The notes: generated from the letters alone by a model not told the origin. Shown: positions 4,007 to 24,793, counted from the first letter of the stretch. The stretch: 64,000 nucleotides of DNA from an uncultured Planctomycetales bacterium (GCA_964550375.1 CAZJYX010000001.1:2049-66048), one strand, 5' to 3'. Translations and numbers: made by a program.

Positions 4007-4019
4007 CTGGGCCTCCTCT

Positions 4020-7650: not shown

Positions 7651-7792
7651 GTTTTGGCACTCCCGTGGGGCCGGTCGCCCAGGTGCGAGAAAAGCGGCAG
7701 CCGAATGCCGGGCCGGCGGCAGGGGCTCCGTTGCCCGCGCGCCGTGATCATACTACACTATTTACTCGTCTTGCTTAACTTAGGAGGCGGTC

Positions 7793-8179: not shown

Positions 8180-8181
8180 GT

Positions 8182-8964: not shown

Positions 8965-9043
8965 TGGATGGCCGCCGGTCAGGTGCGGCCCGCCGGGCGT
9001 ACCGGGGTAACGAGTACTTGTTCAAGCAGGAAAGGTACTGAGC

Positions 9044-9895
9044 ATGATATGGTCGCTATGTTCTCTCGTCTTATTGCTGCAGCCGGCGCCCCATTTGACC
9101 ATGGTGCCGACCGAGGCGCAACAGCCCGCGGAAGACGCGCCCGTATACGATGAAGGGCCGCTGGCAGTGGCCGTCGTGGCGATCTTTGACGCCCGTTACT
9201 GGTTCGAGCACACCCGGACGGGAACGCGTGAATCCGAGATGCGCATGCAGATACGGATATCGGGCGAGGACATCAAGAAGATCGTGCGGGCCGGAGAAGT
9301 GATCTTCACCGAGGTGGTTGACGATACGGGCAAGAGCCTGGTCGACCCGCAGAGTTACACGGAAGAACAGAAGACCCAGACGCGGCCGGTGAACGCCGCG
9401 CCGGAACGTCTCCGCGAGCAGGGCCTGATGACCGGGACGCGGTTCGGCTCACCGGCACGGGGCGCCAAGACGGTCAAGCTGGTCGGCTCCGTGCGTGTCG
9501 TCAAGGCGGCGGACCGCGAGGAGGTCACCATTGATAACCCGCTGCAATACGTCGGCCAGACCATTGAGAACCCGCGGCTGAAAGAGCTTGGCATCGAGGT
9601 CAAGGTCGTGCCGGTCGCCGAGTTGCCGGGCAGCCCGCCGCCCGCGGATCAGATGATTGCGCTGCAGTACCTGCGGGGCGACCAGCAGATCGCCGGCATC
9701 AAGCTGCTCGACGGTTGGATGAAGCCCGTGCGGTACCGCGAGCGGCCGATGAACACGATGAGTGGTGATCCGGTAGCCGCCTACCTGGCCCAGGGCAGCG
9801 CGCTGGACGAGAACACGCAGCTAGTGCTGGAGGTGTTCCCGCATGTCGAGGAAACCGAAGTGAAAATCAATCTCGACGCCGTCCGGCTGCCCTAA
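9044..9895 (+). CDS. hypothetical protein
   Basis: 283-aa ORF with a hydrophobic N-terminus; no recognisable domain. Precedes the flippase gene. Confidence 0.45.
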   Translation: MIWSLCSLVLLLQPAPHLTMVPTEAQQPAEDAPVYDEGPLAVAVVAIFDARYWFEHTRTGTRESEMRMQIRISGEDIKKIVRAGEVIFTEVVDDTGKSLVDPQSYTEEQKTQTRPVNAAPERLREQGLMTGTRFGSPARGAKTVKLVGSVRVVKAADREEVTIDNPLQYVGQTIENPRLKELGIEVKVVPVAELPGSPPPADQMIALQYLRGDQQIAGIKLLDGWMKPVRYRERPMNTMSGDPVAAYLAQGSALDENTQLVLEVFPHVEETEVKINLDAVRLP

Positions 9896-10024
9896 TACGC
9901 TACGGTCCGTGTCGGCCGCCCACCGAGGCGGCGGCGTAAACCCGAGACCTTGCGAGGCGGCGACGTGGCAGGTCGGACTGCCGCGTGGCCGCCTTGTTGC
10001 CTGCGGTCGCCGTTAGGGCCACCC

Positions 10025-11440
10025 GTGACCACTGTTGCACCGCCGAATGGCACTCGTTCGCCCGCGCCGACGTCGCTTGGGGCGCGCTCGCTGCGCAGCA
10101 ACATCTTCTTCGCGGTCAGCGGCATGGGGGTCTTTCACGCGGCCCAGTTCGGCGTCATCGTGCTGCTGGCGAAGTACGCCCCGTCGGATGTGCTTGGCCA
10201 GGTTCGGCTGAGCCTGGCGATTGCCACGCCGATCATCACCTTCTTCTCGCTGGAACTCCGCGGGGCGCTGGTGGCCGACGCCGCCGGCGAATTCACCTTC
10301 GGCACTTACCGCAAGCTACGCTCGTTCTCGATGCTGGTGGCGGGCGTGCTGCTGGCGGCGGTGGCGTTGTGGCAGGCGGTCGCGGAGCGCAATCTCGCCT
10401 ACACCCTAATCCTGGCGGGGATGTGCGCCAGCCGCGTCGTGCTGTCGCTGGCCGAAATCGGGTGGGGGTTGTTTCAGAAGCGCGAGCGCTTGGACTGGAT
10501 GGCCACCTCGGTGACGCTGCGGGGCATCGCCATGATCGCGGCCTTCGGCCTGTGCGTGCCGCTGTATGCCTACATGAGCGCGCGGGGCCTGATTCCGCCG
10601 CAGCGCATCGCCGACGGCGCGGCCATGGCAATCAGCGCGTACGTGGTTGCCTCGGTGGCGGTCCTTCTGCTGCTCGACCACAGGCTGGTGGCGGCCGGCA
10701 AGGACCTTGACCCGACGTGGACATGGTCGGCAGTCCGCCGCCTGGCCCGGCAGACCTTCCCGCTGGGGATCGTCCTGCTGGTGGTGCACTTGTGCAACAG
10801 CATCCCCGAACTGGTTCTCGGACAGCAGGCTAATGGCAAGGCGGCCCTGGGATACTTCGGTGCCCTGGCCACGCTCACGCTGGTGGGCAACCTGCTCGTG
10901 CTGCAGGCCGCCACCGCCGCCGCCAACCGGCTGGCCTGCTCCTACCAAGTCGACTTGCGCGCCTTTCTCCTACTAGGGGCGAAGCTGTTTGGCTTGGCGC
11001 TGCTGGTGGGCGCCGCTACGCTCGCGGTCGCGGCGGGTTGGGGCCGGTGGTTGCTGGAACTCCTGTATCGGGCTGACTACGCCCAGTTCGACCACGAATT
11101 CACACTTATTGCCGTGGCAGCGGCGCTGTCACAGGTGACGAGCATCTTTGGTGTACTCGTCACCCAGATGCGTCTGTTCTGGCTCCAGGTACCCGCACAG
11201 GTGCTGGTGCTGATTTGCACGACTGCGGCGGCTTTTGTGCTAATTCCAGGCGCTGAGAATCTGGTAAGCGGCGGGGCGTGGACGATGCTGGTCCGATCGG
11301 TCACGCATTTGTCGCTCTACACTGTCTGCGTCCTGATCGGACTACTGTTCCGGCGGCGAGTGCTGGCCAGCCGGGTGTCGCTTGCGCAGGAGCCGGCCCG
11401 TCGCCGAACGACGGCCGGCGGCGTGCCGCAGGACTGGTAG
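10025..11440 (+). CDS. polysaccharide/oligosaccharide flippase (MOP superfamily, Wzx-like)
   Basis: About 12 predicted TM helices. N-terminal SLRSNIFFAVSG motif typical of Wzx/MOP exporters. Start set at in-frame GTG 10025. Confidence 0.65.
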   Translation: MTTVAPPNGTRSPAPTSLGARSLRSNIFFAVSGMGVFHAAQFGVIVLLAKYAPSDVLGQVRLSLAIATPIITFFSLELRGALVADAAGEFTFGTYRKLRSFSMLVAGVLLAAVALWQAVAERNLAYTLILAGMCASRVVLSLAEIGWGLFQKRERLDWMATSVTLRGIAMIAAFGLCVPLYAYMSARGLIPPQRIADGAAMAISAYVVASVAVLLLLDHRLVAAGKDLDPTWTWSAVRRLARQTFPLGIVLLVVHLCNSIPELVLGQQANGKAALGYFGALATLTLVGNLLVLQAATAAANRLACSYQVDLRAFLLLGAKLFGLALLVGAATLAVAAGWGRWLLELLYRADYAQFDHEFTLIAVAAALSQVTSIFGVLVTQMRLFWLQVPAQVLVLICTTAAAFVLIPGAENLVSGGAWTMLVRSVTHLSLYTVCVLIGLLFRRRVLASRVSLAQEPARRRTTAGGVPQDW

Positions 11441-11522
11441 GCCGGGCCCGGACAAGGCGGATGCGGTATTCGCGCAGCCGCAGTAGCGGCCATCCGAGGT
11501 GGGGATCATCGATTGGGGTAAG

Positions 11523-11564
11523 CGAGGCCGACGGGACTCGAACCCGCAACCTCCGGCGTGACAG
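11523..11564. repeat. attL: 42-bp direct repeat, duplicate of tRNA-Asp positions 32-73 (anticodon loop to discriminator)
   Basis: cgaggccgacgggactcgaacccgcaacctccggcgtgacag is identical at 11523-11564 and 20152-20193. Flanks diverge immediately outside. Confidence 0.85.
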
Positions 11565-11678
11565 CGGCTCCAAGCCTACAGCCAAAAGCCCGGGAAACTC
11601 TTGACTACCGGTAGTTTACATCATTTACGCAAGCATTGCAAGTCTTATCAGATACCCGCATTTTTAGGCAAATACACG

Positions 11679-11770
11679 CGGTAGGCGGAGCGCATCCGGT
11701 AGTAAACGGTAGTCGCACGGTAGTCGAAACGGTAGTCGCGGGTGGCACGGGGTGGCGCGGGGTGGCACGC
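11679..11770. repeat. iteron-like tandem repeats next to attL: (A)CGGTAGTCG about 4-5 copies, then GGGTGGCRCG 3 copies
   Basis: Read directly: cggtagg, ccggtagtaaa, acggtagtcg, cacggtagtcg, aaacggtagtcg, then cgggtggcacgg, ggtggcgcgg, ggtggcacgc. Palindrome ctaccggtag at 11605-11614. Confidence 0.6.
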
Positions 11771-11993
11771 GCCCGCTCGGTTGTGGACTTGGGTACTTGG
11801 GTCCTGCTGACTTGTGGTGAAGGGCGCCAAGGGTCGGGCCCGCGCACAGAAGCCCGCCAGACCGCGAGAATCGGCCGCTGCTGAGCGCGCCGGGTTGGGG
11901 TGGTACTCTGGCACCCGGAAAAGCGCCAGGGCGAAAAGCGGCCCGCCAGCGTGTAGGCACCGACGGGCCATGTGGAGGGCAACGACAACGGAC

Positions 11994-13472
11994 CTAATTC
12001 GCGAACCTCGCGGTTCGGTCTTGATGGTCAATCGCGAGCTCGACAGCGGAAAGCCCGTTTTTGGTGACCTGATGCAGACGGGTGATTTCGCTGATTTCCT
12101 TCTCGGCCAGGGCAACCATCCGGCCAGTGTTGCGAGCCGTTTGGTCTTCGGCAGGTCGGGGGGTCGCCGCGCTGGCTGCAATCCGGTTGAACGCGCCCGC
12201 GATGGTTTCGAAGGCTTGAACGCGGACTTGAACCGGGGCCACCGTCAACGCGGATTCAAGCGCGGCCTTCGCTTGCTCGCCCGCACGGGCGAAAGTCTCG
12301 GGGTCGATCAAGTCGCGCGACAGAAGGTCGCTCAGTTCCGCGAGGGTGTCGCGGAAAACCTCAGCGGGCGTCCGCACGGCTTGGGCAATCGACGCGGCCC
12401 GCCGCTGCGCGCTGGCGAGTTCGTTCATCGTGTCAAGCTCTTCGGACAAGGCTTCGGCAAGCTCAAGGGTCGCGTCGCTCGCATCGTGTTGCAGCAGCGT
12501 CCACGCCGCGAGTTGCCCAGTAGACATGCCGAAGGTCTCGACTTGCTCGCGTAGGCTGTTGATAACCGAGTCGATGCTTTGTTGCCACTGATCTTCAGCC
12601 TGCGCGGCCTTCTCCGTCGCTTCGGTTTCGTCGTGGATTGCCGTGATAGCCTGATGAATTGCCAACGCGCGGGCAATGTCGGCTTCGGTCGCGCCTTGGG
12701 CCGCAAGCGCGCGATGGATGATCGCCTGTTCATTCAGCGTCAGCGCCTCAAGCTCGCGCTCCAGGCCCGCAATGAAGTCTTCAATTGGTCGCCGCCGCGC
12801 TTCTTCGGCCACAAGCTCGGCCGCCGCAAGCTTCGCGTCCCGCAAGCCGCGCGCGTAGCGTTCGGTCGCTTCGGCGGTTGCCCGCGCCGCGCGCGCGCGT
12901 TCGTGGAGCGGCCCTTGGGCTTCCATCTGCAACTTCGCAATTTCGACCAAACGGGCTTGGTATTCCGTTTCCGCCTCAAGCTTCGCGCGCTCAAGGTCGT
13001 TCGCCGCGCTGACAAGCTTCAACTGCTGCCCCAGCCCGCGAAGTAACTTGCCCTGCGCTTCAACCTGTTTGTTTAAGTTCGCGGGCAAAGGGTCGAAGAT
13101 TCGGTAGATCGCTTCAACCGCGCGATACCAGTCTCGGACGATGGGTATGATCTTCAGAATCTCGCCGGCCAGGTCCTCAGCCGCGAGCTCGCCAGCGCGC
13201 AACTTGGCGGCCAATTCGCCGGCCTGCGTAGCCATATCGCCCAGCAGCCGCCCCGCCATCGACAAGCCGGCCAGCGCGCCGCCGGCCATGCCGATTTGAA
13301 CAAACTTGCCGAACGCGGAGTCGCTGCCAAGCTGCTTGTTCATGCTGTTGACGCTGGTAGCCACGCCGCGCATGGCATCGCGGACACGCCGCGAAGTCTG
13401 TTCAACGCCCTTCATGCGGCGTTCGAAGTCATCTGTTCGCGCGATGATATCGAGAATCGCTTGTGCAGACAT
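11994..13472 (-). CDS. coiled-coil protein of integrative element (tape-measure-like or scaffold-like)
   Basis: 492 aa, A/E/L/R/Q-rich, largely helical/coiled-coil. Immediately preceded by a 152-aa gene (16-nt gap). Confidence 0.55.
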   Translation of the reverse strand: MSAQAILDIIARTDDFERRMKGVEQTSRRVRDAMRGVATSVNSMNKQLGSDSAFGKFVQIGMAGGALAGLSMAGRLLGDMATQAGELAAKLRAGELAAEDLAGEILKIIPIVRDWYRAVEAIYRIFDPLPANLNKQVEAQGKLLRGLGQQLKLVSAANDLERAKLEAETEYQARLVEIAKLQMEAQGPLHERARAARATAEATERYARGLRDAKLAAAELVAEEARRRPIEDFIAGLERELEALTLNEQAIIHRALAAQGATEADIARALAIHQAITAIHDETEATEKAAQAEDQWQQSIDSVINSLREQVETFGMSTGQLAAWTLLQHDASDATLELAEALSEELDTMNELASAQRRAASIAQAVRTPAEVFRDTLAELSDLLSRDLIDPETFARAGEQAKAALESALTVAPVQVRVQAFETIAGAFNRIAASAATPRPAEDQTARNTGRMVALAEKEISEITRLHQVTKNGLSAVELAIDHQDRTARFAN

Positions 13473-13487
13473 ATAGACTTCCTTCGG

Positions 13488-13946
13488 CTACTTGCCTTTG
13501 GTCGCGGTCATGCTGACAGCCGGCGCCGCCGCCGCGTCCGAAGCCGCATCAGCTGGCCGCAACTCGCCATCCTTCGCCAGAAGGTCGCCGATTTCTTCGG
13601 CCGAGAGTTCCGGCTGCGTCTGTCGCGTGGCCAGCCACAACAGATAGGCCGCGCCCTCAAGCTGTCGCGTCGCCGCCTGAACAACCGGATCGGTCGGGCT
13701 CATCGTCACCGCGCGGGCCAACGTCCTGTCAACGATGCCCTCGATTGCCTTCGCGGGTAGATGCTTCTCCAACTCGCCAAGGTGCTGCCAAACGGCCTTC
13801 GAATAGCGCTCCGCAGCCCAGCGCGCGAAGTCGTGCCAGCCCTCGAAGCTCAGCGGGGCCACGCTGAAAGTCTTGCCCGCGAGCGTAACCACTTGCTCCG
13901 GGGTCGGAAGGTTGCCCGCCGGGGTCGGGGTCGCGTCATTCGCCAT
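13488..13946 (-). CDS. hypothetical phage-related protein (position of a tail-assembly-chaperone-like gene)
   Basis: 152-aa ORF translationally adjacent to the coiled-coil gene; no recognisable domain. Confidence 0.45.
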   Translation of the reverse strand: MANDATPTPAGNLPTPEQVVTLAGKTFSVAPLSFEGWHDFARWAAERYSKAVWQHLGELEKHLPAKAIEGIVDRTLARAVTMSPTDPVVQAATRQLEGAAYLLWLATRQTQPELSAEEIGDLLAKDGELRPADAASDAAAAPAVSMTATKGK

Positions 13947-14145
13947 CGTGTTGCTCCTGTCTGCGGTTCCACAAACCGCTGTCCGTTCTCACAAGTCGTT
14001 GTCACGTCCACACTTACAAGCAGCACCGGGCCCGGCTGGTGCCAGGGCTGGTGCGAAACGTCAAAAGCCCGCCGACGGGGCGCTACGCGCGCGCCCGCCG
14101 ACGAACCGTCCCAAAGGGAGCCCCAATCACGTCCGTCACCTTCGG

Positions 14146-14850
14146 TCACTTCTGCCCAGCCTGCCGCACCATGATCGCCGCCGCCTCATCGCGAACACGC
14201 TGGCGTTCAACGATTCCGTCCCGAATCCCCGCGTGAAGCTCGCGGTCTTCTCGCCGGAGCCGGGATTCCTCAGCGTCGTACTCTTCGTCGCGCTCAAGGT
14301 CCGCGACCAGTCGCGCCGGGTCCTGCCCGACCGGAGCCACTGCGATGCCAACGTAGCCGTCCACAAGCGGAATCGGGTTGCCCATGTAGCCCGGCGATTC
14401 GATGTCGGTCAGCGGGTGTTCGGGGAAGGCCACGCGCATCGCCTCGACAAGCTCGCCATCGTCGGCGCACCGCAACAAAGCCGGGGTGCCGCGCTCGCGG
14501 GCCCACTCATCGAATGCTGCCAGCAACGCCGAAACGCTCACGGCCAGCCCGTTGTGTTCCGCGAACCGCTCGCGTCCGAAGTCTGCAAGCTTGGCCGCAC
14601 GCTCCGGGGCCGCGTCGGCGCGGCGCTGCTCGCGCTCGCGGTCTTGCTCCGCATCGATACGCCGTGCCTCAGCGTGCGCCGACAGCGCGCGAAGTTCCAA
14701 GCCAAGCCGTGATTTCCGGATCAAGGCAAGCTGTTCCTCAGCCAACTGCAAGCGGCCCTCAAGCGCCGCCAGTCGCGCGGCGTAGGGGTCCGGGTCGGGC
14801 TTGCCGCCCTTGTCGGAAGGGGTCGTTGTTTTTGGGGGTCTGCCTCGCAT
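14146..14850 (-). CDS. hypothetical coiled-coil protein (scaffold-like?)
   Basis: 234 aa; N-terminal charged helical region LAALEGRLQLAEEQLALIRK...; acidic C-terminus. Confidence 0.45.
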   Translation of the reverse strand: MRGRPPKTTTPSDKGGKPDPDPYAARLAALEGRLQLAEEQLALIRKSRLGLELRALSAHAEARRIDAEQDREREQRRADAAPERAAKLADFGRERFAEHNGLAVSVSALLAAFDEWARERGTPALLRCADDGELVEAMRVAFPEHPLTDIESPGYMGNPIPLVDGYVGIAVAPVGQDPARLVADLERDEEYDAEESRLRREDRELHAGIRDGIVERQRVRDEAAAIMVRQAGQK

Positions 14851-14902
14851 GTTGCGTCCTTTCTGTTCCGTTGCCGTCCGTTGCCTTCGGTGCCGGCGCC
14901 GC

Positions 14903-15520
14903 CTACTTCTGCCCAGCCCGCTGCGCCGCCGCAGCCGCCGCCCACCGCCGCCGGAGCGCGTCCTTCACAATCGCGGTTGTCCGCGCGGCGCGCGACAGCG
15001 AAAGCGGGATGAAGTCGCCCAGACCGGGCACTACCGGATTCGTACACAACGCCACGTGTTCGATGGGCTGCATGTACACGTTGCCCTTGCCGTCCACGAG
15101 CCGGGGCGGACTCTGTAGCGACACGTCCGAGCGGGCCACAGCGTTCACCGCGTCTTCACCGATGATCGTGCACGCCATCCAAAGCGTGTCGCCTTCGATC
15201 CAAAGGCTATCGACCCAGCCCATGTTGCGGGTCGCGCTTCCGTGGTTCGCGTGCTGGTCGGGAATCGGCACGCGGACGCCGTTCGCCTTCATCCGCCCGA
15301 ATTGCGTTATCCAATTGTCCAGGTGCGCCCGCGTGATCTGAAAGTCCTCGCCGGCGCTCATTTTCGCGTAGCGCCCGACGCGCACGACTTCCTTTTTGAA
15401 CCGCCGTTGCGGGATGCTTTGGCCGTTGTCAGCGGGCGCGCTTTCCAGCGGGCCGATGGGGGTTGCCGTCGGGGTTGCCGTCATCATTGCCGGGGCCGTC
15501 ATAGTCGTCACGTTGCACAT
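14903..15520 (-). CDS. Mu gpI-like (prohead protease/scaffold family) N-domain protein
   Basis: Motif run VVRVGRYAKMSAGEDFQITRAHLDNWITQFGRMKANGVRVPIPDQH. It resembles the conserved GxF..IT...L..IV.NF....V.ID.EH block of Mu-like prophage protein I, from memory of family motifs. Confidence 0.4.
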   Translation of the reverse strand: MCNVTTMTAPAMMTATPTATPIGPLESAPADNGQSIPQRRFKKEVVRVGRYAKMSAGEDFQITRAHLDNWITQFGRMKANGVRVPIPDQHANHGSATRNMGWVDSLWIEGDTLWMACTIIGEDAVNAVARSDVSLQSPPRLVDGKGNVYMQPIEHVALCTNPVVPGLGDFIPLSLSRAARTTAIVKDALRRRWAAAAAAQRAGQK

Positions 15521-15804
15521 CCTTTCTTGCGGCCGGCCGCGCTTGCTGCGCGCCGCCGCTGGGGGGTCTTGTCCTCTCGGGCCGCAATCGCCGCCTCGAG
15601 TCTGCCGATGCCCTCGCCGATGCTGGGGAAGCCCTCGAATGCCCGAGCCGCCTCAGCGCTCGACACGTCAAGGCCGACCGTCCGCGCGACCATCAAGCCG
15701 ACCAGCCGCGCCGCATCGCTCCGCACGTCCGCGACGCGCCGCCGCTGTCGCTCCGCCGACCGAAGCCGGCCCTCCAACCGCGCTACCGTCGCCCGCAGGG
15801 TCAT
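15508..15804 (-). CDS. hypothetical protein
   Basis: 98-aa R-rich ORF in operonic position (overlaps both neighbours by a few nt). Confidence 0.3.
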   Translation of the reverse strand: MTLRATVARLEGRLRSAERQRRRVADVRSDAARLVGLMVARTVGLDVSSAEAARAFEGFPSIGEGIGRLEAAIAAREDKTPQRRRAASAAGRKKGCAT

Positions 15805-16193
15805 ATTCCAACCGCTCCGCCAGCCGTGCCGCGCTCCTGCTCCGCAGCCATCGCCGCCTCAACGCTCTCCAAACGCTCAAGCAAATCCGCCGCGATGGGC
15901 TGCCCAATCGCGTAGCTCAACAACAGCTTTGCCGCCTGAGCATCGCCGCTCCGCGCCGCCTTCACGAGCCGCCCGATGATCGACCGTATGTCTTGCTCGC
16001 TGACCGCCGCAATCAGCGCCGACCGAAGCCGGGCCACTTGAGCGCCCAGCGGGTTGCCGGGCCCGCCGCTGTTGCCGCGCGCGAACCGCCCGCGCGAGTC
16101 GCGCCCGGAGCCGCCGTCACTGCCGTTTGGTGACGGCGCTGACGGATGCACCTTCAAGGCTTTCTTGCCCGACTTGTTCTGCTTGCTCGCCAC
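15801..16193 (-). CDS. DUF5681-like protein, possible small terminase (TerS)-like
   Basis: N-terminal GRFARGNSGGPGNP motif (cf. the G(K/R)F.KGQSGNP.GRPKG signature). Helical C-terminus AARSGDAQAAKLLLSYAIG. Confidence 0.45.
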   Translation of the reverse strand: MASKQNKSGKKALKVHPSAPSPNGSDGGSGRDSRGRFARGNSGGPGNPLGAQVARLRSALIAAVSEQDIRSIIGRLVKAARSGDAQAAKLLLSYAIGQPIAADLLERLESVEAAMAAEQERGTAGGAVGI

Positions 16194-16202
16194 GAAACCG
16201 CC

Positions 16203-16463
16203 TCAGCTTCTCACTTCCGCGCCAGCAGCCGCGCCAGCCCGCAGGGGTTGCGGTTGTAACCGCCGCCCAGACCGTGGCTTACGAGCCTCGCCAGCGGTTT
16301 CCATAACCGCTTCGGTAACCGCTTCCACGCTTACGCATCGCAAGCCGAATCTCCGGAGAGCGACCTTCAGCAGCGCCCGGACTCGCATCGCGCCATCCGC
16401 GCCGCCGTAGTCGCGGGCTTGCCCGATCGGTCGGAACGTCAGCTTGTACGCCGTGCTTGCCAA
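16203..16463 (-). CDS. hypothetical protein
   Basis: 86-aa ORF in operon context. Confidence 0.3.
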   Translation of the reverse strand: MASTAYKLTFRPIGQARDYGGADGAMRVRALLKVALRRFGLRCVSVEAVTEAVMETAGEARKPRSGRRLQPQPLRAGAAAGAEVRS

Positions 16464-16496
16464 GACTCTGCCTCAGCCCAGCCCATCAGCCTAGCG

Positions 16497-16889
16497 TCAA
16501 CCCATCGGGTCGATTCGAAGCTCAACAACGCACTGTGCCGGCGTGTAGCCGTCGCACGCCGCCGTGACAACTTCCGAGTACACGCCCGGCTTCAAGCCGC
16601 TGCCGTCCAACTCGATTTCGAACGGGACGCCGTGCTCGCAACTCTCGGGGATCGTCAGCCACTCCGCGCCGCCAAACTTGGAGAGCGCGATCGATTCTTC
16701 GGGGTCGGGGGCGCCGGCCACAACCAAGCTCTTGGTAAGGGCCTGCGGCTGCCCACCGGGCCGGCTACCAAGCACGCCGCGCACGTTCGCGGGCGCGTGC
16801 GGGCCGCACGGCACGCGGACCGTTGTGTCACCTGTCACCGCCACCGGATCGAAACTCAGAGTCGGCATTGGTCCTTCCTTTCTCAGCAT
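16497..16889 (-). CDS. hypothetical protein
   Basis: 130-aa ORF; globular-looking composition with Cys residues. Confidence 0.4.
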   Translation of the reverse strand: MLRKEGPMPTLSFDPVAVTGDTTVRVPCGPHAPANVRGVLGSRPGGQPQALTKSLVVAGAPDPEESIALSKFGGAEWLTIPESCEHGVPFEIELDGSGLKPGVYSEVVTAACDGYTPAQCVVELRIDPMG

Positions 16890-16989
16890 TCAGAGCCGGT
16901 TTTATCGGCCGTACAGGCGGCACCCGGTAGAGTACCGGCCATTCCGTCGGCCTCGCCGTGGGCCGCTTCTCGTAAGTACCGCCACCTGC

Positions 16990-18159
16990 TCACGTTACGC
17001 ACTCCATCGCACCCGCAACCTCCGGCGTCGCGGGCTCCCGCTCTTGGCTCTTGGGTCGATGGATTCGCTGGTCGGGCTCGGGTTCCAGGGGCAAGGGCTC
17101 CGGCTCGCCGAATTGCAGGCCGTGCTCCGCCAGCAACGCGACGAACAAGGGCGTTGTTCGGTTGCACCAGCCAACATGGCCTTTTCGGAGAAGGTGCTGT
17201 TCTTCGGGCCGGAGCCGCTGCTGCCCTTCAACGAGCATCGCAGCCCGGTCGGCTTCTGGGAGCGCATCAAACGTCCGCGCGGCCCAAGCCCGCCTCGAAT
17301 TTCTCCAATCCTCAAGCTCCTGCCGATACTCACGCTCACGAGCCGCCGCCGCTCGCCGCTCGTCGGCAGTCCGCCGTTCGTGCTCCAGGTCCGCGACCTC
17401 TTGCCGATACATTGCGAGCCGTTCCGGGTCCTGAAACTCGCGGGCTACCATGCCCGGACCCCAGCGGGACCGCTCCGCGACGGCCAACACGTGCCGCACC
17501 AGCGCCGAGCCGTGCTGCGAAATCTGCCGGACTGCCGCCGCGCCCAGCCGGTCGTTGCTGGGGAAGGGGTGTTGCTCCAGGAGCCGCCGAGCTTCGGCCA
17601 CGTTGGCTGCCTCGCCGGGCGCCTCGCCGTGGGCCGCTCCCGCTCCGATCTTCTCCGCCTCTCTCAATCCGAAATCTCCCCCCCCACCTTCACCCGGCCG
17701 CGCGCCCGGGGGCTGGGGGGCTGGCGATTGCGTGGGGGGTTTGGGGGGGGAAGTATTCTTCTCTTCTCTTCTCTTCTCTGGTAACGATTTTGTAACGCCG
17801 CCAGCGTTACACCTGCGTTTCCGATGCTTGGCTACCCGGTTAGCCGTAAGTACCCGCTGCTTCGCACCTTGCGACATGTGCCGTTCGAATCGCGGGATGC
17901 TGATAGCGTTACTTGTAACGCGGAGCCAGCCGACCTTCTGAAGGTTTTCTGCGAAGTTTTCGACGCCGGCCAACTCGTCGATGAAGTCGGGCGTCAGGTT
18001 CGGCGCGCGGCCGTCCCGCGAGTGTTTGTCGAACCAAGACCAGACCGCGTGCAAGGAGCCGACGACGTGTTGGCGGGCAATCCCGCAAGCACTGGCGAGG
18101 GTCAGTACTGCGGGATCGTCGGGCAGGTCGTGGCGCATTTTGAGCCAGTCACCAGCCAT
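16990..18159 (-). CDS. replication-associated protein (phage replisome-organiser-like N-domain) with low-complexity linker
   Basis: Start MAGDWLKMRHDLPDDPAVLTLASACGIARQHVVGSLHAVWSWFDKHS resembles phage replisome organiser N-terminal domains. Pro/Gly-rich linker is encoded by homopolymer tracts; R/E-rich C-terminal half. Confidence 0.5.
   Translation of the reverse strand: MAGDWLKMRHDLPDDPAVLTLASACGIARQHVVGSLHAVWSWFDKHSRDGRAPNLTPDFIDELAGVENFAENLQKVGWLRVTSNAISIPRFERHMSQGAKQRVLTANRVAKHRKRRCNAGGVTKSLPEKRREEKNTSPPKPPTQSPAPQPPGARPGEGGGGDFGLREAEKIGAGAAHGEAPGEAANVAEARRLLEQHPFPSNDRLGAAAVRQISQHGSALVRHVLAVAERSRWGPGMVAREFQDPERLAMYRQEVADLEHERRTADERRAAAAREREYRQELEDWRNSRRAWAARTFDALPEADRAAMLVEGQQRLRPEEQHLLRKGHVGWCNRTTPLFVALLAEHGLQFGEPEPLPLEPEPDQRIHRPKSQEREPATPEVAGAMECVT
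17678..17779. repeat. simple-sequence region: C8 (17678-17685), G-runs incl. G8 (17743-17750), (TCTTC)x4.6 (17757-17779) inside the Rep-like gene
   Basis: Read directly from sequence; encodes ...EKRREEKNTSPPKPP...GGGGD... on the minus strand. Confidence 0.8.
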
Positions 18160-18172
18160 CGTGGGAATCCCT

Positions 18173-18439
18173 TCAGCACCCCGCAGCCTGCAAAGCCTTC
18201 CCCGCCTTCTCGGCCTTGTGGTCGCGCGTCTCCGGCAGGGCACCGGGCGCGTTCAAGGCCGCGATGAAGCGGTTTACGGCCTGCTCGGTCGTGAACCGCT
18301 GACCGCCGACCATGATGCTTTCCAGCCGCACGCCGCGCACGCCAACCGCCGTCCAGCGCCAGCGCGTGGCGAGACTCGGGCGTCCGGGAACCCGGACTTT
18401 GTTCAACGGGACCAAAACTTCACTCGAAAGGTCGATCAT
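18173..18439 (-). CDS. AlpA/excisionase-like HTH DNA-binding protein
   Basis: 88 aa. PSLATRWRW...GVRLESIMVGGQRFTTEQAVNRFIA resembles the AlpA/Xis pattern (STIYRWIK...G.FP.P.KIGGRS.RW.E.E...W). Sits between int and rep. Confidence 0.4.
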   Translation of the reverse strand: MIDLSSEVLVPLNKVRVPGRPSLATRWRWTAVGVRGVRLESIMVGGQRFTTEQAVNRFIAALNAPGALPETRDHKAEKAGKALQAAGC

Positions 18440-18773
18440 GGCGCAGGCTCCTAAAAACTACCCGGTTGCCGAATCCACCTTAGACCTGCTTACCAAATTC
18501 AACCACTCGAATTTCTTGCCCCGCCAGGATTCCTAGTGGTACACGGGTGGTATACTACGGATATGGGTATATCGAGGGTCCCGGTAAGTCGTTATCCAGT
18601 CGGGCCTTGGGCGCGGCGCCGGGCGCGGGCCGTGTCGGCCGACGGGCTGAAGATTTTTTTGGCGAACCCCGGATTTCCCCCGAAAAACCCTGCGCGGCGC
18701 GCCAGGTTTCGCAGACGCGCCGCACGGGGCCAAGCCGGCCAGGAGCTACCCGGCCAGCCTGCGGGGCCCTACG

Positions 18774-20036
18774 TCAACCGATCTTCCCCGCCGCGTCGCG
18801 GGCGCGGGTCGCGTCCATCTCGGCGTAGACCTGCGTAACGGCTAGGCTCCGGTGGCCGAGCACGGCCTTGGCGACTTCCAGGCCGTATTCCTTCCGCATC
18901 GCCGTTGCGGCTGAGTGCCTCAGCTGGTGGGGGTGCCAGTCCGGAATCTCATCTTCCCCGCGCTCGCGCCGGAGCCGGTTCGCCGTGGCGATGCCGCGCT
19001 GGACGGCCGCGTAGTAGGAGTTCGTCGTCCACCGCTCCCCGGGGAGCTTCCGGGGCCGGGCCTTACGCCGGTTGCGCTGGGACGGCTGGACACGTGTCTT
19101 CCGCCGGCTGCGTAGCTCAACGAAGCGCCGCTCGCGGGCGCGGGCTGGCGAAAACAGGTATTCGGTCAGGTCCATCCGCAGCCAGGGCCGCAAGACCTCT
19201 TGGGCTTTCGGGCCAAGCCGAATCTGACGCTCGTGGCCATGATGCTCGGTTTTGTGAACGCTCGGGGTGTAGCACCAAACCTTCCCGGTCGCGTCGATGT
19301 CGCCGGTCCGCATGATGGTCACTTCGCCGGAGCGCATGCCGGTCAGCCGCTGAAGCTCAACCATCGCAGCCACTTCCGGCGCGACGTGCGGTAGCGTCGC
19401 GTCCACAAAGTGATCCGGCACGGGCCGCACTGGCTCGCCTTCGCGGGCGTCAGACCGGCCGCGCTCCAGGTGCTTCACGGCCTGCAGCGCGTGGCACACA
19501 CTGGCCGGGCATAGCTCGTTTTCGACGGCCCAGGCGAACACCCGGCGGATACGTTGGACGGTCTTGTTGACGTGCGTGCGGGTGCGCCCGGCCGCTACGA
19601 ACCGCTCCCGGACGGTCTTGAGCTTCAGGGGTCCGAAGTCGGCCGCCGGCGTGAGCCCGTACAACTCCCGCAGCGGTCGCAGCGCGGCCCGCAGGTGGCC
19701 AAGCTCTTTTTCGCTCGGCTGCCCGTCCCGGTCGCGGTAGTAGCTCTCCGCGAATCGCAGATAGGCCAGTAGCAGTTCGTTCACGGATATGCTCGGCTGG
19801 TCCTCCCCCGGGCTCGGCAGCGTGCGGCCGTGGGCTACCCACTCGGCAATGAGCCGGCTGTACTTCTCCCGGCTCTCCGGGCTGCCGTGGCGTCCTAGGT
19901 AGTGGTCCCGGCCGTCCAGCGTTGTGACGGCCTGCCCGCTGGCTTTGTGGAGCCGGTAGGCGGGGACACGGCCTGCGGCTGCTGCGGGCTTGCGAGGGGC
20001 GTTTCTTGAGCTTCTGCGGGGCGTAGTGCGGGGCAT
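18774..20036 (-). CDS. int: tyrosine-type site-specific integrase
   Basis: C-terminal catalytic domain with HQLRHSAAT...LGHRSLAVTQVYAE (R-H-R-Y signature). Lies adjacent to the tRNA/attR. Confidence 0.9.
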   Translation of the reverse strand: MPRTTPRRSSRNAPRKPAAAAGRVPAYRLHKASGQAVTTLDGRDHYLGRHGSPESREKYSRLIAEWVAHGRTLPSPGEDQPSISVNELLLAYLRFAESYYRDRDGQPSEKELGHLRAALRPLRELYGLTPAADFGPLKLKTVRERFVAAGRTRTHVNKTVQRIRRVFAWAVENELCPASVCHALQAVKHLERGRSDAREGEPVRPVPDHFVDATLPHVAPEVAAMVELQRLTGMRSGEVTIMRTGDIDATGKVWCYTPSVHKTEHHGHERQIRLGPKAQEVLRPWLRMDLTEYLFSPARARERRFVELRSRRKTRVQPSQRNRRKARPRKLPGERWTTNSYYAAVQRGIATANRLRRERGEDEIPDWHPHQLRHSAATAMRKEYGLEVAKAVLGHRSLAVTQVYAEMDATRARDAAGKIG

Positions 20037-20151
20037 GGGCGACCTCCGGATGGGCTACCCGGTAGTACTACCGGGTTTTCCAGCTTCCCGGGCCGCACTG
20101 CCCTACTCAGGCAGGTACGCTAAACCCTGCGTTCGGCACGACTTGGGGCAA

Positions 20152-20226
20152 CGAGGCCGACGGGACTCGAACCCGCAACCTCCGGCGTGACAGGCCGGCG
20201 CTCTAGACCAATTGAGCTACGGCCCC
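20152..20226 (-). tRNA. tRNA-Asp (anticodon GTC)
   Basis: Manually folded 75-nt cloverleaf: acceptor GGGGCCG/CGGCCTC, D arm GCTC-GAGC, anticodon stem CCGGC/GCCGG, loop CTGTCAC, T arm GCGGG-TTCGAGT-CCCGT, discriminator G. CCA is not encoded. Confidence 0.85.
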
Positions 20227-20527
20227 AATCGTTCGCTCACGCTGGTCAGCGTGAGTCCTGAGTCTGGGTATTTTACAGGTCCCGCAGGTTATGTCAAACG
20301 CCGCTATTTCGAGCTGCAAGCGGACGGTGGCGGCCGAACGTGGGCCCGGTTCATTATCTGTCACTGGGTTGCGCCCCGCCCTCGGCTTGCCCGGCCCGAA
20401 AGCGGGTCGGCCGCAGCGCCGATACAACAGATAACGTTGGCTGGCGGGCCGGTGCAGGCTAACGTTGCGCCCCGGCTCTGGAACGCCGGGGCACCGGCGA
20501 CAAGGGGCGAAAGGAGTCCGGAACGTC

Positions 20528-21619
20528 ATGTTAGGCAGGTCAGGCACCGGGCAAGCACGAAAGGTTCGGGTCCTCATCGTTGATGACAGCGCGATGGTGC
20601 GCGCGATTCTGCGCAGCGCGCTCTCACAGCATCCGGGGATCGAGGTCGTGGGACTGGCGACGGACGGCCTGGACGCTCTGGCCAAGATCGCCAGTCTCCG
20701 TCCGGATGTCGTCACGCTGGACGTCGAGATGCCGCGCCTCAACGGCCTGGGTGTGCTGCAGCGCGTCAGCGGGAAGGTACCCGTCAGTTTCGTCATGATC
20801 TCCACGCTGACGCAGGCCGGCGCTCGGGTCACGTTCGATGCTCTGCGCCTGGGGGCTTTTGACTACGTGCCGAAGCCGGAACGTTCCGGCATTGCCGGGC
20901 TGCCGGACTTCCGTCAGGCCGTCCAGGAGAAGGTGCTGGCGGCGGCGGCGGCCAAGGGTCGCAGCAGGCCGGTCGTGAGCGGACGGACGCGCACCGCGGC
21001 GCCCACGCTGCCGCCGAACTGCGCCCGGGGCTGGATTGTAGCGATCGGGATCAGTTGCGGCGGTCCGCAGACGCTGATGGAGATGCTGCCGGCCTTCCCG
21101 AGCGACTTCGTGCCGATTGTCGTGACCCAGCATATGCCGGCGCAGTTCACGGCCACGTTTGCCAGTCGCCTTGACAAGGAATGCGCCATGCGTGTCAAGG
21201 AGGCAGCCGATGGTGATGTGGCGGAACCGGGGCTCATCCTGGTCGCGCCGGGCGATCGCCACTTGGGGCTGCGGCGTACCGGCCTGAACTGGCGGGTGGC
21301 GCTCGATAGCGGACCGCTGGTCTCCGGGCATCGGCCGTCGGCGGACTTCATGTTCTCCTCGGCGGCGCGGGCGTGCGCGCCGCGCTGCGTGGGTGTGATC
21401 ATGACCGGCATGGGACACGACGGGGCCGACGGCATCGTGCGGCTCAAGACGGCCGGCTGCCCTACGATCGCGCAGGACGAAGATACCTCGCTGGTCTACG
21501 GCATGCCGAAGGCCGCGGTGCAGACCGGGCACGTGGACCACGTGGTGCCGCTGGCGCGGATACCACATGCCATAGCGCGGGTGATCGGCAAGGGGGCCTG
21601 TGCCGAGGCGAGAACGTGA
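20528..21619 (+). CDS. cheB: chemotaxis response regulator protein-glutamate methylesterase
   Basis: N-terminal receiver (VLIVDDSAMVR) plus C-terminal CheB methylesterase domain (GISCGGPQTL, MTGMGHDGADG). Confidence 0.9.
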   Translation: MLGRSGTGQARKVRVLIVDDSAMVRAILRSALSQHPGIEVVGLATDGLDALAKIASLRPDVVTLDVEMPRLNGLGVLQRVSGKVPVSFVMISTLTQAGARVTFDALRLGAFDYVPKPERSGIAGLPDFRQAVQEKVLAAAAAKGRSRPVVSGRTRTAAPTLPPNCARGWIVAIGISCGGPQTLMEMLPAFPSDFVPIVVTQHMPAQFTATFASRLDKECAMRVKEAADGDVAEPGLILVAPGDRHLGLRRTGLNWRVALDSGPLVSGHRPSADFMFSSAARACAPRCVGVIMTGMGHDGADGIVRLKTAGCPTIAQDEDTSLVYGMPKAAVQTGHVDHVVPLARIPHAIARVIGKGACAEART

Positions 21620-21914
21620 TTGTGCGTGGTGTCGGTAGGTTGTGTTATGGGACCGGCGATCCGGAGCCCCGAAAGGCGTGCGGCCCAGCGGGCGGGAAAA
21701 ACGCCGCTGGCATGGGATGTGGTGTACCGGGCAGCCGTTAAACGACCTGGCAGTCGCGCTAGTCAACGCGGCCGGAGGTCCGGTCGATGAAGAGGCCGGA
21801 TTGCATTCCGTGGCGGCCAAGCGTGCGTGTCAGCGGATTGCATGGTAGTCGGCGCGGGTCTGCGCATGAGTGATCTTGGCGACCTGAGAGGGGCAGGGTC
21901 GCGGAGGCTGAACC

Positions 21915-22376
21915 GTGGATGTTTCCTACGTGAACCCCTTTGTCGAAGCGGTTGATGCCGTCTTCCAAACCATGCTTGACGTGCACCCCAAGCGGAACGC
22001 GGTGAAGATCAACAGTCAGGAGAAGCGCGGCGAGCGTCTGACGTCGCTGATTGGCATCAGCGGCCGGATGAGCGGCTGCGTGGCGCTCTGCTTCCCGCCC
22101 GAGACGGCCTTGCGGTTGTCGGGTCGGATGCTGGGCAGCGAGATCACGCAGGTCAACGACGAGGTCATCGACGCCATCTCGGAACTCGTCAACATGGTAG
22201 CCGGATCGGCCAAGGCCAAGTTCAACGCCGACCCGCCGTTGGAGCTCGGTTTGCCCACTGTCGTGGAGGGTTCGGGCTATCGCGTGAAATACCCGAGCAA
22301 GTCCGTCTGGCTGGAAGTACCCTTCAGCTCGGACGCCGGGGATTTCAGCATGGAAGTCACCTACTGCCCGAATTGA
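21915..22376 (+). CDS. cheX: CheX/CheC-like chemotaxis phosphatase
   Basis: MDVSYVNPFVEAVDAVFQTM N-terminus and ELVNMVAG motif typical of CheX. Confidence 0.7.
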   Translation: MDVSYVNPFVEAVDAVFQTMLDVHPKRNAVKINSQEKRGERLTSLIGISGRMSGCVALCFPPETALRLSGRMLGSEITQVNDEVIDAISELVNMVAGSAKAKFNADPPLELGLPTVVEGSGYRVKYPSKSVWLEVPFSSDAGDFSMEVTYCPN

Positions 22377-22385
22377 CGCATTGAG

Positions 22386-22769
22386 GTGCAGCTAATGAAA
22401 GCACTGGTGGTCGACGACTCGATGACTATTCGGCGAATCGTCATCAAAGCGCTCGGAATGGTGGGTATCAACGAGACGACCGAGGCCGGGGACGGTGTCG
22501 AGGCCCTGGAAGCGGTTAACCGCGGCGGAGATTTCGGGCTGATCCTGCTGGACTGGAACATGCCCAAAATGAGCGGCATCGACACGCTGCGTGCGCTGCG
22601 CCAGGCCGGCAACACGACCCCCGTCATCATGGTCACCACCGAGGCGGAAAAATCCCGCGTGATCGAGGCCATTAAGACCGGCGCCAACGATTACCTCATC
22701 AAGCCCTTCTCGCCGGACCAGTTGGCGGCCAAGGTCAAGAACGCGATCGGGGCCGGAGCCCCCGGCTAG
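22386..22769 (+). CDS. cheY: CheY-like single-domain response regulator
   Basis: ALVVDDSMTIRR...ILLDWNMPKMSG...DYLIKPF. Confidence 0.85.
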   Translation: MQLMKALVVDDSMTIRRIVIKALGMVGINETTEAGDGVEALEAVNRGGDFGLILLDWNMPKMSGIDTLRALRQAGNTTPVIMVTTEAEKSRVIEAIKTGANDYLIKPFSPDQLAAKVKNAIGAGAPG

Positions 22770-22992
22770 CGCGATTCACCCGGCATCCGGCCGGTCTGGC
22801 CGGCGAACGACCGGCCGCCGCGTCAACCGCCCGCTTACTGGTCGGCCTGGACTTTGGCGTATAGGATGCCGCCCGGTTGCGGACTGGTCCGTTGACGGTC
22901 CTCGATGTTATGGCGCCCGCCGCGGTCCGAGCGGCTTCGCACACCCGCGCTGCGCCGGCCGCCCCGGGAGCCGGCCTCGTCCGGTAACAAGC

Positions 22993-24603: not shown

Positions 24604-24793
24604 GCAACCGCCGATTCCCGTGGCGTTCGCCAGGGTGGTGGCGGGCCTGACGGGACCAGTGGTTCGCGCTCGTCCTAGGGGCGTGGGGGCGGCCGACTAA
24701 GGTCCCACAGCACCAGCATCCGATGGGGAGCATGTCGGGTCTGCCCGACGGGTGGTTACACGTGTGTACCAGCTTCATTCTGAGGAGATAGCA

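What the first reader, a model, noticed from the sequence alone, without database searches (positions are those of the whole stretch)
11523..20193. About 8.7-kb integrative element inserted in the anticodon loop / 3' half of tRNA-Asp, bounded by perfect 42-bp direct repeats
The 42-mer cgaggccgacgggactcgaacccgcaacctccggcgtgacag occurs at 11523-11564 and 20152-20193. The second copy is tRNA-Asp positions 32-73 of an intact 75-nt gene. The first copy has no 5' half. The tyrosine integrase gene sits just inside attR. Every gene between the repeats is on the minus strand and none looks like chromosomal housekeeping. This is a classic tRNA-targeting integrase island, probably excisable.
Basis: seen in the sequence. 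Interest (0 to 1): 0.75.

Follow-up and report, generated by a model that had tools for sequence, protein, structure and literature searches.

The report
Mobile island inserted in tRNA-Asp
An 8.6-kb mobile element has inserted precisely into the tRNA-Asp gene of an uncultured planctomycete; the insertion itself is textbook, but its cargo (its own replication gene plus a cut-down phage capsid-protease gene) suggests it may be a parasite of a phage rather than a plain island.

Summary
The 42-mer occurs exactly twice (11523-11564 and 20152-20193). The right copy is positions 32-73 of the only tRNA in the window, tRNA-Asp(GTC). The left copy is not a tRNA. A related Planctomycetales MAG (about 91% nucleotide identity) has the Wzx-like gene, an intact tRNA-Asp and the CheB gene adjacent, with one copy of the 42-mer. 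That is a clean empty site, so the insert is 8,629 bp.

The insert carries 10-11 co-oriented genes: an intact tyrosine integrase, a DUF1580 protein, a phage-type replication initiator and seven or eight small genes. CGGTAGT repeats cluster beside both att cores.

One gene (p202) is the protease domain of a phage head protease-scaffold protein, without the scaffold part. Another (p234) has a winged-helix fold like the phage P4 origin-binding domain.

A second, about 9.6-kb element in tRNA-Thr shares these two genes plus a DUF5681-like gene, but has a different integrase and replication module.

Best reading: a site-specific integrative element (near certain), probably a helper-dependent phage satellite (about even odds, unproven). 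No excised or packaged form, helper phage or small terminase was found. It is a new member of a known kind and of moderate interest.

The parts
11523..11564 (.). attL core: the displaced chromosomal 3' part of tRNA-Asp (positions 32-73). It has no 5' half.
   Evidence: Exact 42-mer. No tRNA is called here. The flank gattggggtaag matches the empty-site flank gattggggaaag in L011.
11565..11993 (.). 429-bp non-coding arm of the element next to attL. It contains a palindrome ACTACCGGTAGT (11604-11615), an AT-rich stretch (about 11610-11680), four direct CGGTAGT repeats at 10-12-nt spacing (11697-11736), and three GGGTGGCRCG repeats at 10-nt spacing (11739-11769). Candidate integrase arm-type sites and/or an iteron-type origin.
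   Evidence: CGGTAGT occurs 15 times in the window against 3.2 expected (0 of 100 shuffles reach 15), and 8 of the 15 lie within about 200 nt of the att cores. GGGGTGGCRCG is not enriched window-wide, so only its tandem arrangement is notable. The function is inferred.
11994..13472 (-). p492: orphan 492-aa protein, the last gene of the element. Function unknown.
   Evidence: Only itself in the 5.8-billion-protein search. Only non-significant hits: tape measure phrog_58 at E 0.084 and Hemerythrin at 0.022. No similarity to the phage scaffold domain.
13488..13946 (-). p152: 152-aa protein of unknown function.
   Evidence: No Pfam, PHROG, NCBIfam or PADLOC hit. No similarity to the scaffold domain.
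14146..14850 (-). p234: winged-helix DNA-binding-type domain (residues about 96-171) flanked by long helices. Its fold resembles RFX DNA-binding domains and the origin-binding domain of the phage P4 alpha protein.
14903..15511 (-). p202: capsid-maturation-protease-like domain. It corresponds to the N-terminal about 145 aa of phage head protease-scaffold proteins, plus a short C-terminal tail. The internal scaffold region is absent.
15508..15804 (-). p98: small protein of unknown function. Its start and stop overlap the neighbouring genes by 4 nt.
15801..16193 (-). p130: DUF5681-like protein, below the Pfam threshold. It is shared with the tRNA-Thr element L055 (55% identity).
   Evidence: PF18932 at E 9e-4, 20.2 bits against a cut-off of 27.5. 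phrog_38011 at 1.1e-3. L055 homologue.
16203..16463 (-). p86: possible small gene, called in only one of the assemblies.
16497..16868 (-). p123: small protein of unknown function.
16990..18159 (-). Rep: 389-aa protein whose N-terminal about 140 aa is a phage-type replication-initiation domain. The C-terminal 250 aa have no relatives.
   Evidence: phrog_2509 at E 4.7e-46 and phrog_9474 at 1.6e-27. In 42 viral contigs only residues 1 to about 175 match.
18173..18439 (-). DUF1580 protein (88 aa), in the position where an excisionase or AlpA-type regulator usually sits (inferred).
   Evidence: PF07618 at E 4.1e-14. The role is inferred from size and position only.
18440..18773 (.). 334-bp intergenic region between int and the DUF1580-rep operon. 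Probable promoter/operator region.
   Evidence: Sequence read. Function inferred.
18774..20036 (-). Tyrosine integrase, 420 aa.
   Evidence: PF00589 at E 7.3e-17. Motifs TGMRSGE (R235), HQLRHS (H370, R373), LGHRS (H395), QVYAE (Y404). Relatives at 40% identity in 31-53-kb viral contigs.
20060..20073 (.). Palindrome CGGTAGT/ACTACCG between the int start and attR. It uses the same 7-mer as the left-arm repeats.
20152..20193 (.). attR core: the element-borne copy that now forms positions 32-73 of the functional tRNA-Asp.
20152..20226 (-). Intact tRNA-Asp(GTC), with a near-consensus promoter-like site upstream (TTGACA-16-TAAAAT, 20297-20270).

Best explanation
An 8,629-bp integrative element, carried by an uncultured planctomycete, inserted by tyrosine-integrase recombination between an element-borne attP and the chromosomal tRNA-Asp gene.

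How the insertion works. The attP contains a 42-bp copy of tRNA-Asp positions 32-73. The element replaces the 3' part of the tRNA with its own identical copy, so the tRNA stays intact. The original 3' part is left as a stub at the far end. This much is shown.

Inferred life cycle.
- The integrase, probably with the DUF1580 protein as directionality factor or regulator, excises the element as a circle. The CGGTAGT repeats beside both cores would serve as arm-type sites.
- The circle is replicated by its own phage-type initiator, with an iteron-like array and an AT-rich tract in the 429-bp arm as the likely origin.
- The element most likely depends on a helper tailed phage for transfer, that is, it is a phage satellite.

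Basis for the satellite reading. The element carries no capsid, portal, terminase, tail or lysis genes. It does carry a shortened copy of a phage head protease-scaffold gene: the protease domain is kept, the internal scaffold region is missing, and a tail resembling the phage protein's C-terminal end remains. It also carries a P4-alpha-like winged-helix DNA-binding protein and a DUF5681-like protein. This three-gene set recurs in an unrelated tRNA-Thr element of similar size.

Proposed hijack step (speculative). The mini-protease enters or competes for helper procapsids through the shared C-terminal tail. This would parallel the way SaPI1 CpmB mimics the C-terminus of its helper's scaffold.
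For: Integration
- Exact 42-bp repeats with no chance expectation.
- A single intact tRNA-Asp, and the left copy is not a tRNA.
- A precise empty site in a relative at about 91% identity, and in a more distant one.
- An integrase with the catalytic motifs next to attR.
- The tetranucleotide signature is the most deviant in the window: 0.225 against 0.07-0.13.
- CGGTAGT is enriched and clustered on both sides of the core.

Intact, compact element
- 10-11 co-oriented genes with 4-nt start/stop overlaps.
- Identical copies in 15 contigs from several assemblies.

Own replication
- phrog_2509 at E 4.7e-46.

Link to phage heads
- p202 is 43-59% identical to the N-terminal domain of proteins lying between the portal / minor head genes and the major capsid gene.
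- Fold matches to T4 gp21, assemblins and phage capsid proteases.
- His87 and Ser131 are invariant.

Not a random truncation
- The independent tRNA-Thr element L055 has a protein of the same short form (197 aa, seen in 39 assembly blocks).
- That protein's tail KERAAGTEPAIVRDAKRRA matches the extreme C-terminus of the phage proteins (score 70, 0 of 500 shuffles).
- The window protein's tail matches more weakly (16 of 500 shuffles).

Shared three-gene module with a different integrase and replication module.

p234 fold resembles the P4 alpha origin-binding domain.

No complete virion gene set by Pfam or PHROGs.

Known satellites have the same general make-up and size (PMC10085698; PMC9618062). 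C-terminal scaffold mimicry is an established hijack mechanism (PMC5644958).
Against: - No excised circle, concatemer or packaged form was seen. The 8,647-bp Logan contig is only a k=31 unitig that stops 30 nt into each repeat.
- The element is absent from IMG/VR viral contigs.
- No helper phage was identified, and no related phage head genes occur elsewhere in the window.
- No small terminase, and the DUF5681 match is below threshold.
- No recognisable repressor or AlpA.
- Five or six of the 10-11 proteins have no assignable function, and p492 has no relatives at all.
- The window protein's tail similarity is only weakly significant.
- All 15 observed copies are integrated and identical, so there is no population evidence of mobility.
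Confidence: 0.5

Rival explanations
1. Autonomous integrative island or integrated plasmid that needs no helper phage. It integrates, excises and replicates on its own and spreads by other routes such as vesicles, transformation or conjugative mobilisation. The phage-derived genes would serve another purpose, for example interference with an infecting phage.
For: Integrase, replication initiator and a possible origin are all present. No terminase or packaging signal was identified. A protease that cleaves or poisons a phage's head proteins could act as a defence. Half of the cargo is of unknown function.
Against: No relaxase, oriT-type protein, partition genes or known defence system. The same protease / winged-helix / DUF5681-like trio is conserved in a second small element with otherwise different machinery, which points to a common transfer-related function. 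Retention of the phage protein's C-terminal tail suggests the protein is targeted to capsids.
Confidence: 0.25
2. Remnant of a full-size prophage that lost most of its structural genes by internal deletion but kept both att sites.
For: The closest integrase relatives (40% identity) lie in 31-53-kb viral contigs. The Rep N-terminal domain is common in prophage-like contigs. p202 is shorter than its phage homologues. p492 has a non-significant resemblance to tape-measure proteins (E 0.084).
Against: All genes are intact, tightly packed and co-oriented, with overlapping stops and starts. The repeats are perfect. The short protease form keeps both ends of the phage protein and recurs at the same length in an independent element present in 39 assembly blocks, none on a contig over 10 kb. 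No fragments of capsid, portal, terminase or tail genes remain.
Confidence: 0.15
3. A complete, very small temperate virus whose capsid protein is among the unannotated genes.
For: Five or six proteins have no assignment. The element has its own integrase and replication genes.
Against: An assemblin-fold maturation protease works with HK97-fold capsids. No such capsid protein, portal or terminase is detectable, and none of the unknown proteins resembles one by Pfam or PHROGs. 8.6 kb is far below any known tailed-phage genome (established knowledge).
Confidence: 0.05

Closest known systems
tRNA-targeting tyrosine-integrase genomic islands and prophages (P4-integrase-type insertion into the 3' part of a tRNA gene)
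   Same: A direct repeat equal to the 3' part of the tRNA, starting in the anticodon loop. The element restores the tRNA. The integrase gene lies next to the intact tRNA. There is an empty site in relatives.
   Different: Nothing in the insertion mechanism differs. Only the host (an uncultured planctomycete) and the cargo are new.
PICI / SaPI phage-inducible chromosomal islands (definition in PMC10085698)
   Same: Similar size range and one-directional layout: int, small DNA-binding protein, replication gene, then a phage-interaction module. No virion genes. The mini-protease shares a C-terminal tail with the phage head protein, comparable to SaPI1 CpmB sharing the RIIK motif with the helper's scaffold (PMC5644958).
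   Different: No AlpA/Stl/MerR homologue, no primase-helicase, no small terminase, and no cpm/ppi/rpp homologues detected. The morphogenesis-related gene is a protease domain. Phage induction has not been shown.
Marine virion-encapsidated integrative mobile elements, VEIMEs (PMC9618062)
   Same: Small integrase-bearing elements with their own replication genes, few recognisable phage genes, no major capsid gene and many orphan genes. Some of them encode proteases.
   Different: VEIMEs are defined by having been found as concatemers inside virus particles. That evidence is lacking here. The host phylum and gene families differ.
Satellite phage P4
   Different: No Psu, Delta, Sid or Epsilon, and no primase-helicase. 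The resemblance is of fold only and covers about 76 residues.
Tycheposons of marine cyanobacteria (my own recollection of Hackl et al., Cell 2023; not checked here)
   Same: tRNA-targeting tyrosine-recombinase elements with a replication module and variable cargo. Several elements use the same tRNA hot spot, as seen here at tRNA-Asp in loci L008 and L010.
   Different: Different recombinase and replication families. No comparison was run.

Membership tests
tRNA-targeting tyrosine-integrase integrative element | Insert flanked by direct repeats that duplicate part of a tRNA gene, with one complete tRNA and one partial copy | tested here: met
   Exact 42-bp repeat equal to tRNA-Asp positions 32-73. 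One tRNA only, and the left copy is not a tRNA.
tRNA-targeting tyrosine-integrase integrative element | Tyrosine recombinase with catalytic residues encoded next to an att site | tested here: met
   PF00589 at E 7.3e-17. R235, H370, R373, H395 and Y404 motifs present. The gene starts 115 nt from attR.
tRNA-targeting tyrosine-integrase integrative element | Unoccupied target site in related genomes | tested here: met
   L011 (about 91% identity) and L012 have the Wzx-like gene directly followed by an intact tRNA-Asp with a single core.
tRNA-targeting tyrosine-integrase integrative element | Excision to a circular form with an attP junction | not testable with these tools
Logan contig L004 is a k-mer artefact.
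PICI (five core components, PMC10085698) | Integrase | tested here: met
PICI (five core components, PMC10085698) | Regulation module homologous to alpA, merR or stl | tested here: not met
   Only a DUF1580 protein sits in that position. No AlpA, MerR or Stl match in Pfam, PHROGs or NCBIfam. An analogous role is possible but only inferred.
PICI (five core components, PMC10085698) | Primase-replicase module | tested here: inconclusive
   A replication-initiation protein (phrog_2509, E 4.7e-46) is present, but no primase or helicase domain.
PICI (five core components, PMC10085698) | Capsid morphogenesis gene | tested here: inconclusive
   p202 is related to phage head protease-scaffold proteins, but it is not homologous to known PICI morphogenesis genes and its effect is unknown.
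PICI (five core components, PMC10085698) | Small terminase subunit | tested here: not met
   No terminase hit in Pfam or PHROGs. The DUF5681 match is below threshold and that family has no known function.
PICI (five core components, PMC10085698) | Induction and packaging by a helper phage | not testable with these tools
   Needs experiments or virus-particle sequencing.
cfPICI (capsid-forming PICI) | Own major capsid, portal and head-tail connector genes | tested here: not met
   None detected.
P4-like satellites | Core genes psu, delta, sid, alpA, epsilon and alpha (primase-helicase) | tested here: not met
   No sequence matches. Only a fold resemblance of p234 to the alpha origin-binding domain.
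VEIME (PMC9618062) | Small integrase-bearing element with replication genes and no major capsid gene | tested here: met
VEIME (PMC9618062) | Found as concatemers inside virus particles | not testable with these tools
   No virome long reads available. The element is not in IMG/VR.
Complete tailed prophage | Large terminase, portal, major capsid, tail and lysis genes | tested here: not met
   None found in 8.6 kb.

The most novel reading that the evidence does not exclude
The element and the tRNA-Thr element L055 would represent a previously undescribed family of phage satellites, the first in Planctomycetota. The family would be defined by a portable three-gene hijack module: a scaffold-less capsid-maturation protease that keeps the helper protein's C-terminal capsid-targeting tail, a P4-alpha-like winged-helix DNA-binding protein, and a DUF5681-like protein. 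This module would be combined with interchangeable integrase and replication modules. The mini-protease would compete with the helper's protease-scaffold inside procapsids, to resize or sabotage helper heads. That would be a protease-based variant of the scaffold mimicry known from SaPI1 CpmB.
Probability: 0.4. Interest if true: 0.6.

Novelty: new member of a known kind. Interest (0 to 1): 0.4.

Why it matters
The insertion itself is textbook and mainly confirms that the scan can find real mobile elements.

The added value is in the cargo. Almost nothing is known about the phages and mobile elements of Planctomycetota, and the systematic satellite census cited here does not mention that phylum.

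If the satellite reading holds, this element and its tRNA-Thr cousin would give three things: a defined marker module for finding such elements in environmental genomes, a candidate new way of hijacking capsid assembly (a protease domain carrying the helper's tail), and a handle for identifying the helper phages of an uncultured lineage through the full-length homologues.

Tried and rejected
1. Logan contig L004 (8,647 bp) looked like a circular copy. Its ends lie exactly 30 nt inside each repeat and overlap by 18 nt, as expected for a k=31 unitig broken at a 42-bp repeat. It is not evidence of excision.

2. Tetranucleotide composition does separate the element.

3. I searched metagenome contigs for any junction type with the 42-mer plus its 3' flank. 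Only three contigs were found, none of them an attP or an empty site of this strain.

4. Searches of IMG/VR with p202, p492, p234 and p130 as single proteins found no relatives. tblastn of p130 and p202 against 50,697 GenBank phage records found no match.

5. p234 and p492 have no word-indexed homologues other than themselves.

6. PDB sequence searches with the p202 profile, Rep, p492 and p234 gave nothing meaningful.

7. PADLOC and NCBIfam found no defence system or named family apart from the recombinase.

8. The idea that DUF5681 is a small terminase. In Salmonella phage STGO-35-1 a gene annotated DUF5681 lies two genes upstream of the large terminase. That protein does not match PF18932 in the current Pfam, and the element's own match is below threshold. 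Left as an untested lead.

9. The idea that p492 or p152 supplies the missing scaffold domain. hhalign against a profile of the phage C-terminal domains gave probabilities of 0.04% and 0.13%. Rejected.

10. The GGGGTGGCRCG repeats are not enriched in the window.

11. The other direct and inverted repeats in the element look like chance matches.

Full report
OBSERVATION

There are no additional matches with up to three mismatches and none in 100 shuffles.

ARAGORN finds a single tRNA in the window, tRNA-Asp(GTC) on the minus strand at 20151-20227. Rfam places it at 20152-20226 with 71.1 bits and finds no other RNA family in 9000-23000 at E<=0.1.

I read the gene directly. The repeat runs from the first base of the anticodon loop (standard position 32) to the discriminator base (73). 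The left copy continues into unrelated sequence and is not a tRNA. A near-consensus promoter-like site (TTGACA-16-TAAAAT) lies upstream of the tRNA.

EMPTY SITE

A scan of one genome per species with the Wzx-like flanking protein (window 10025-11440) returned two relatives.

- Contig CAZYGM010000017.1 (uncultured Planctomycetales MAG, L011) aligns with window 1203-11564 at 91.3% identity and with window 20143-30064 at 90.7%. The two alignments overlap in L011 by the repeat itself.
- L011 has one copy of the 42-mer (11498-11539) inside an intact tRNA-Asp directly after the Wzx-like gene.
- The sequence just past the tRNA 3' end in L011 (gattggggaaag) matches the window's left flank (gattggggtaag). 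It does not match the right one (gacttggggcaa). So the left flank is chromosomal and the right one came in with the element.
- A more distant MAG (L012, 59% protein identity) also has the Wzx-like gene next to tRNA-Asp with a single core.

G+C does not differ (0.660 inside, 0.666 and 0.659 outside). The element does have the most deviant tetranucleotide composition in the window: distance 0.225 against 0.07-0.13 for host segments of equal length.

ANATOMY

All genes lie on the minus strand, that is, in the same direction as the tRNA. In order they are:

- the integrase (18774-20036);
- a 334-bp gap;
- a DUF1580 protein (18173-18439; PF07618, E 4e-14);
- Rep (16990-18159);
- p123, p86 and p130;
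- p98, p202 and p234;
- p152 and p492;
- a 429-bp non-coding arm before the left core.

Several genes overlap by 4 nt. The integrase is a PF00589 tyrosine recombinase (E 7e-17) with the R, H-x-x-R, H and Y motifs present. The first 140 residues or so of Rep match phage replication-initiation families (phrog_2509, E 4.7e-46). Homologues in 42 viral contigs cover only that domain.

The 7-mer CGGTAGT occurs 15 times in the window against 3.2 expected. Eight copies lie beside the att cores:

- a palindrome at 20060-20073, between int and the right core;
- a palindrome at 11604-11615;
- four direct copies at 10-12-nt spacing at 11697-11736.

These are followed by three tandem GGGTGGCRCG units and preceded by an AT-rich tract. 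Sites on both sides of the core fit integrase arm-type sites. The tandem array plus the AT-rich tract also fits an iteron-type origin. Which protein binds them is not known.

THE CARGO

Most proteins have no family. Two could be placed.

p202 is a capsid-protease-like domain.
- It has only three other clusters of relatives in 5.8 billion proteins.
- One relative (P0003, 330 aa, 59% identity over residues 33-177) lies just upstream of a major capsid gene (Phage_cap_E, phrog_29; one intervening gene with only a faint head-decoration-protein match) and downstream of a large minor-head/portal-associated protein.
- A profile scan of IMG/VR found six more homologues, all 347-430 aa.
- In L066 the gene order is large terminase, portal, minor head protein, p202 homologue, small protein, major capsid protein. 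That is the position of the head protease/scaffold gene.
- Weak PHROG hits are to head maturation proteases.
- His87, Asp129 and Ser131 are invariant in all seven sequences aligned. They are candidates for the His/Ser catalytic pair of this fold (inference).
- The phage proteins carry a further 150-230 residues that p202 lacks.

p234 is a winged-helix protein.
- It belongs to a family of only 16 clusters among 1.84 billion representatives, all 203-263 aa.
- It modelled with pLDDT 91.9.

A SECOND ELEMENT WITH THE SAME MODULE

The closest short relative of p202 (P0002, 197 aa, 56% identity) is encoded on contigs from 39 assembly blocks, none longer than 10 kb.

The contig ends are the 3' part of a tRNA-Thr(TGT). 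The consistent break points imply an element of about 9.6 kb bounded by a repeat of about 52 nt.

It shares three proteins with the window element:
- the DUF5681-like protein (55% identity);
- the p234-like protein (about 29%);
- the short protease.

Otherwise it has an unrelated 510-aa tyrosine integrase, an AlpA-like protein, a Cro/CI-type HTH protein, an ERCC4 nuclease and a DnaB-type helicase.

The tail of P0002 (KERAAGTEPAIVRDAKRRA) matches the extreme C-terminus of the phage proteins (KGKEAGDEPAVVRDAKRRA; score 70, 0 of 500 shuffles). The tail of the window protein aligns with both, but more weakly (16 of 500 shuffles).

The short form is therefore the protease domain joined to the phage protein's end, with the middle removed. 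It occurs twice, in elements with different backbones. That argues for a selected function and against accidental truncation.

INTERPRETATION

Shown: a precise, integrase-type insertion into tRNA-Asp that restores the tRNA, with an empty site in relatives.

Inferred with good support: the element can replicate on its own, and it carries phage-head-related and DNA-binding genes as a conserved module.

Inferred with about even odds: it is a phage satellite. The make-up fits the general description of satellites:
- an integrase, a small DNA-binding protein and a replication gene;
- a phage-interaction module;
- no capsid, portal, terminase, tail or lysis genes;
- a size of 8.6 kb.

The shared C-terminal tail recalls the way SaPI1 CpmB and the helper's scaffold share the C-terminal motif that binds the capsid protein.

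The element fails the membership tests for PICI (no AlpA/Stl/MerR, no small terminase, no primase), cfPICI and P4-like satellites. Its gene content fits the looser VEIME category, but the defining evidence of encapsidation is missing.

WEAKNESSES

- No excised or packaged form was seen. The 8,647-bp Logan contig is an assembly artefact.
- All 15 copies found are integrated and identical.
- The element is absent from IMG/VR.
- No helper was found. The window holds no other phage head genes related to those contigs. Some of the phage contigs have a similar G+C of 0.62-0.69, which is compatible with such a host but proves nothing.
- No terminase was found, and the DUF5681 assignment is below threshold.
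- Five or six proteins remain unexplained, including the largest, p492, which has no relatives at all and no similarity to the missing scaffold domain.

RIVALS

- An autonomous integrative island whose phage-derived genes serve interference (0.25).
- A deleted prophage remnant (0.15). This is disfavoured by the intact, compact operon and by the recurrent short protease form.
- A complete tiny virus (0.05).

VERDICT

The cargo makes it a moderately interesting candidate for a new satellite lineage in a phylum where none has been described in the literature searched here.

Noticed in passing
L008 (SDBV01075099.1) 681-722 and 3369-3410; L010 (SDBV01205018.1): In a related organism from another metagenome, the same Wzx / tRNA-Asp site holds a different insert of about 2.6 kb. 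It is flanked by the same 42-mer and has four small minus-strand ORFs and no obvious integrase. A variant contig has only about 1 kb there. The roughly 80 nt next to the tRNA are 82% identical to the int-proximal arm of the window element (window 20070-20235). So tRNA-Asp is a recurrent insertion hot spot in this clade, and L008 may be a decayed or integrase-less relative.
   Followed up: partly
L055 (GCA_020049655.1, JAHZTS010014252.1) 1-9626, and Logan contigs L056-L062: A separate element of about 9.6 kb inserted in tRNA-Thr(TGT), with a repeat of about 52 nt. It was seen in 39 assembly blocks. It carries the same DUF5681-like, p234-like and short-protease trio, with a different integrase and a DnaB/ERCC4 replication module.
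   Followed up: partly
window 11697-11769: Four CGGTAGT repeats at about one helical turn spacing are followed directly by three GGGTGGCRCG repeats at 10-nt spacing, next to an AT-rich tract. This could be an origin of replication rather than, or as well as, integrase arm sites.
   Followed up: partly
window 18540-18580: The int / DUF1580 intergenic region contains a short run with repeated GGTATA motifs (gtggtatactacggatatgggtatatcgag), which might be an operator. No divergently transcribed repressor gene is present anywhere in the element.
   Followed up: no
L063 2-4036: In one phage contig the gene upstream of the p202 homologue encodes a product of at least 1,344 aa (it runs off the contig end). 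It combines minor-head / portal-associated domains with ADP-ribosyltransferase-like (Alt/Bxa-type) regions, so it may be a head-packaged effector fusion.
   Followed up: no
window 20270-20297: Near-consensus sigma-70-type promoter-like site (TTGACA, 16 nt, TAAAAT; 11 of 12 matches) upstream of tRNA-Asp. It was the only such match in 8.9 kb.
   Followed up: no
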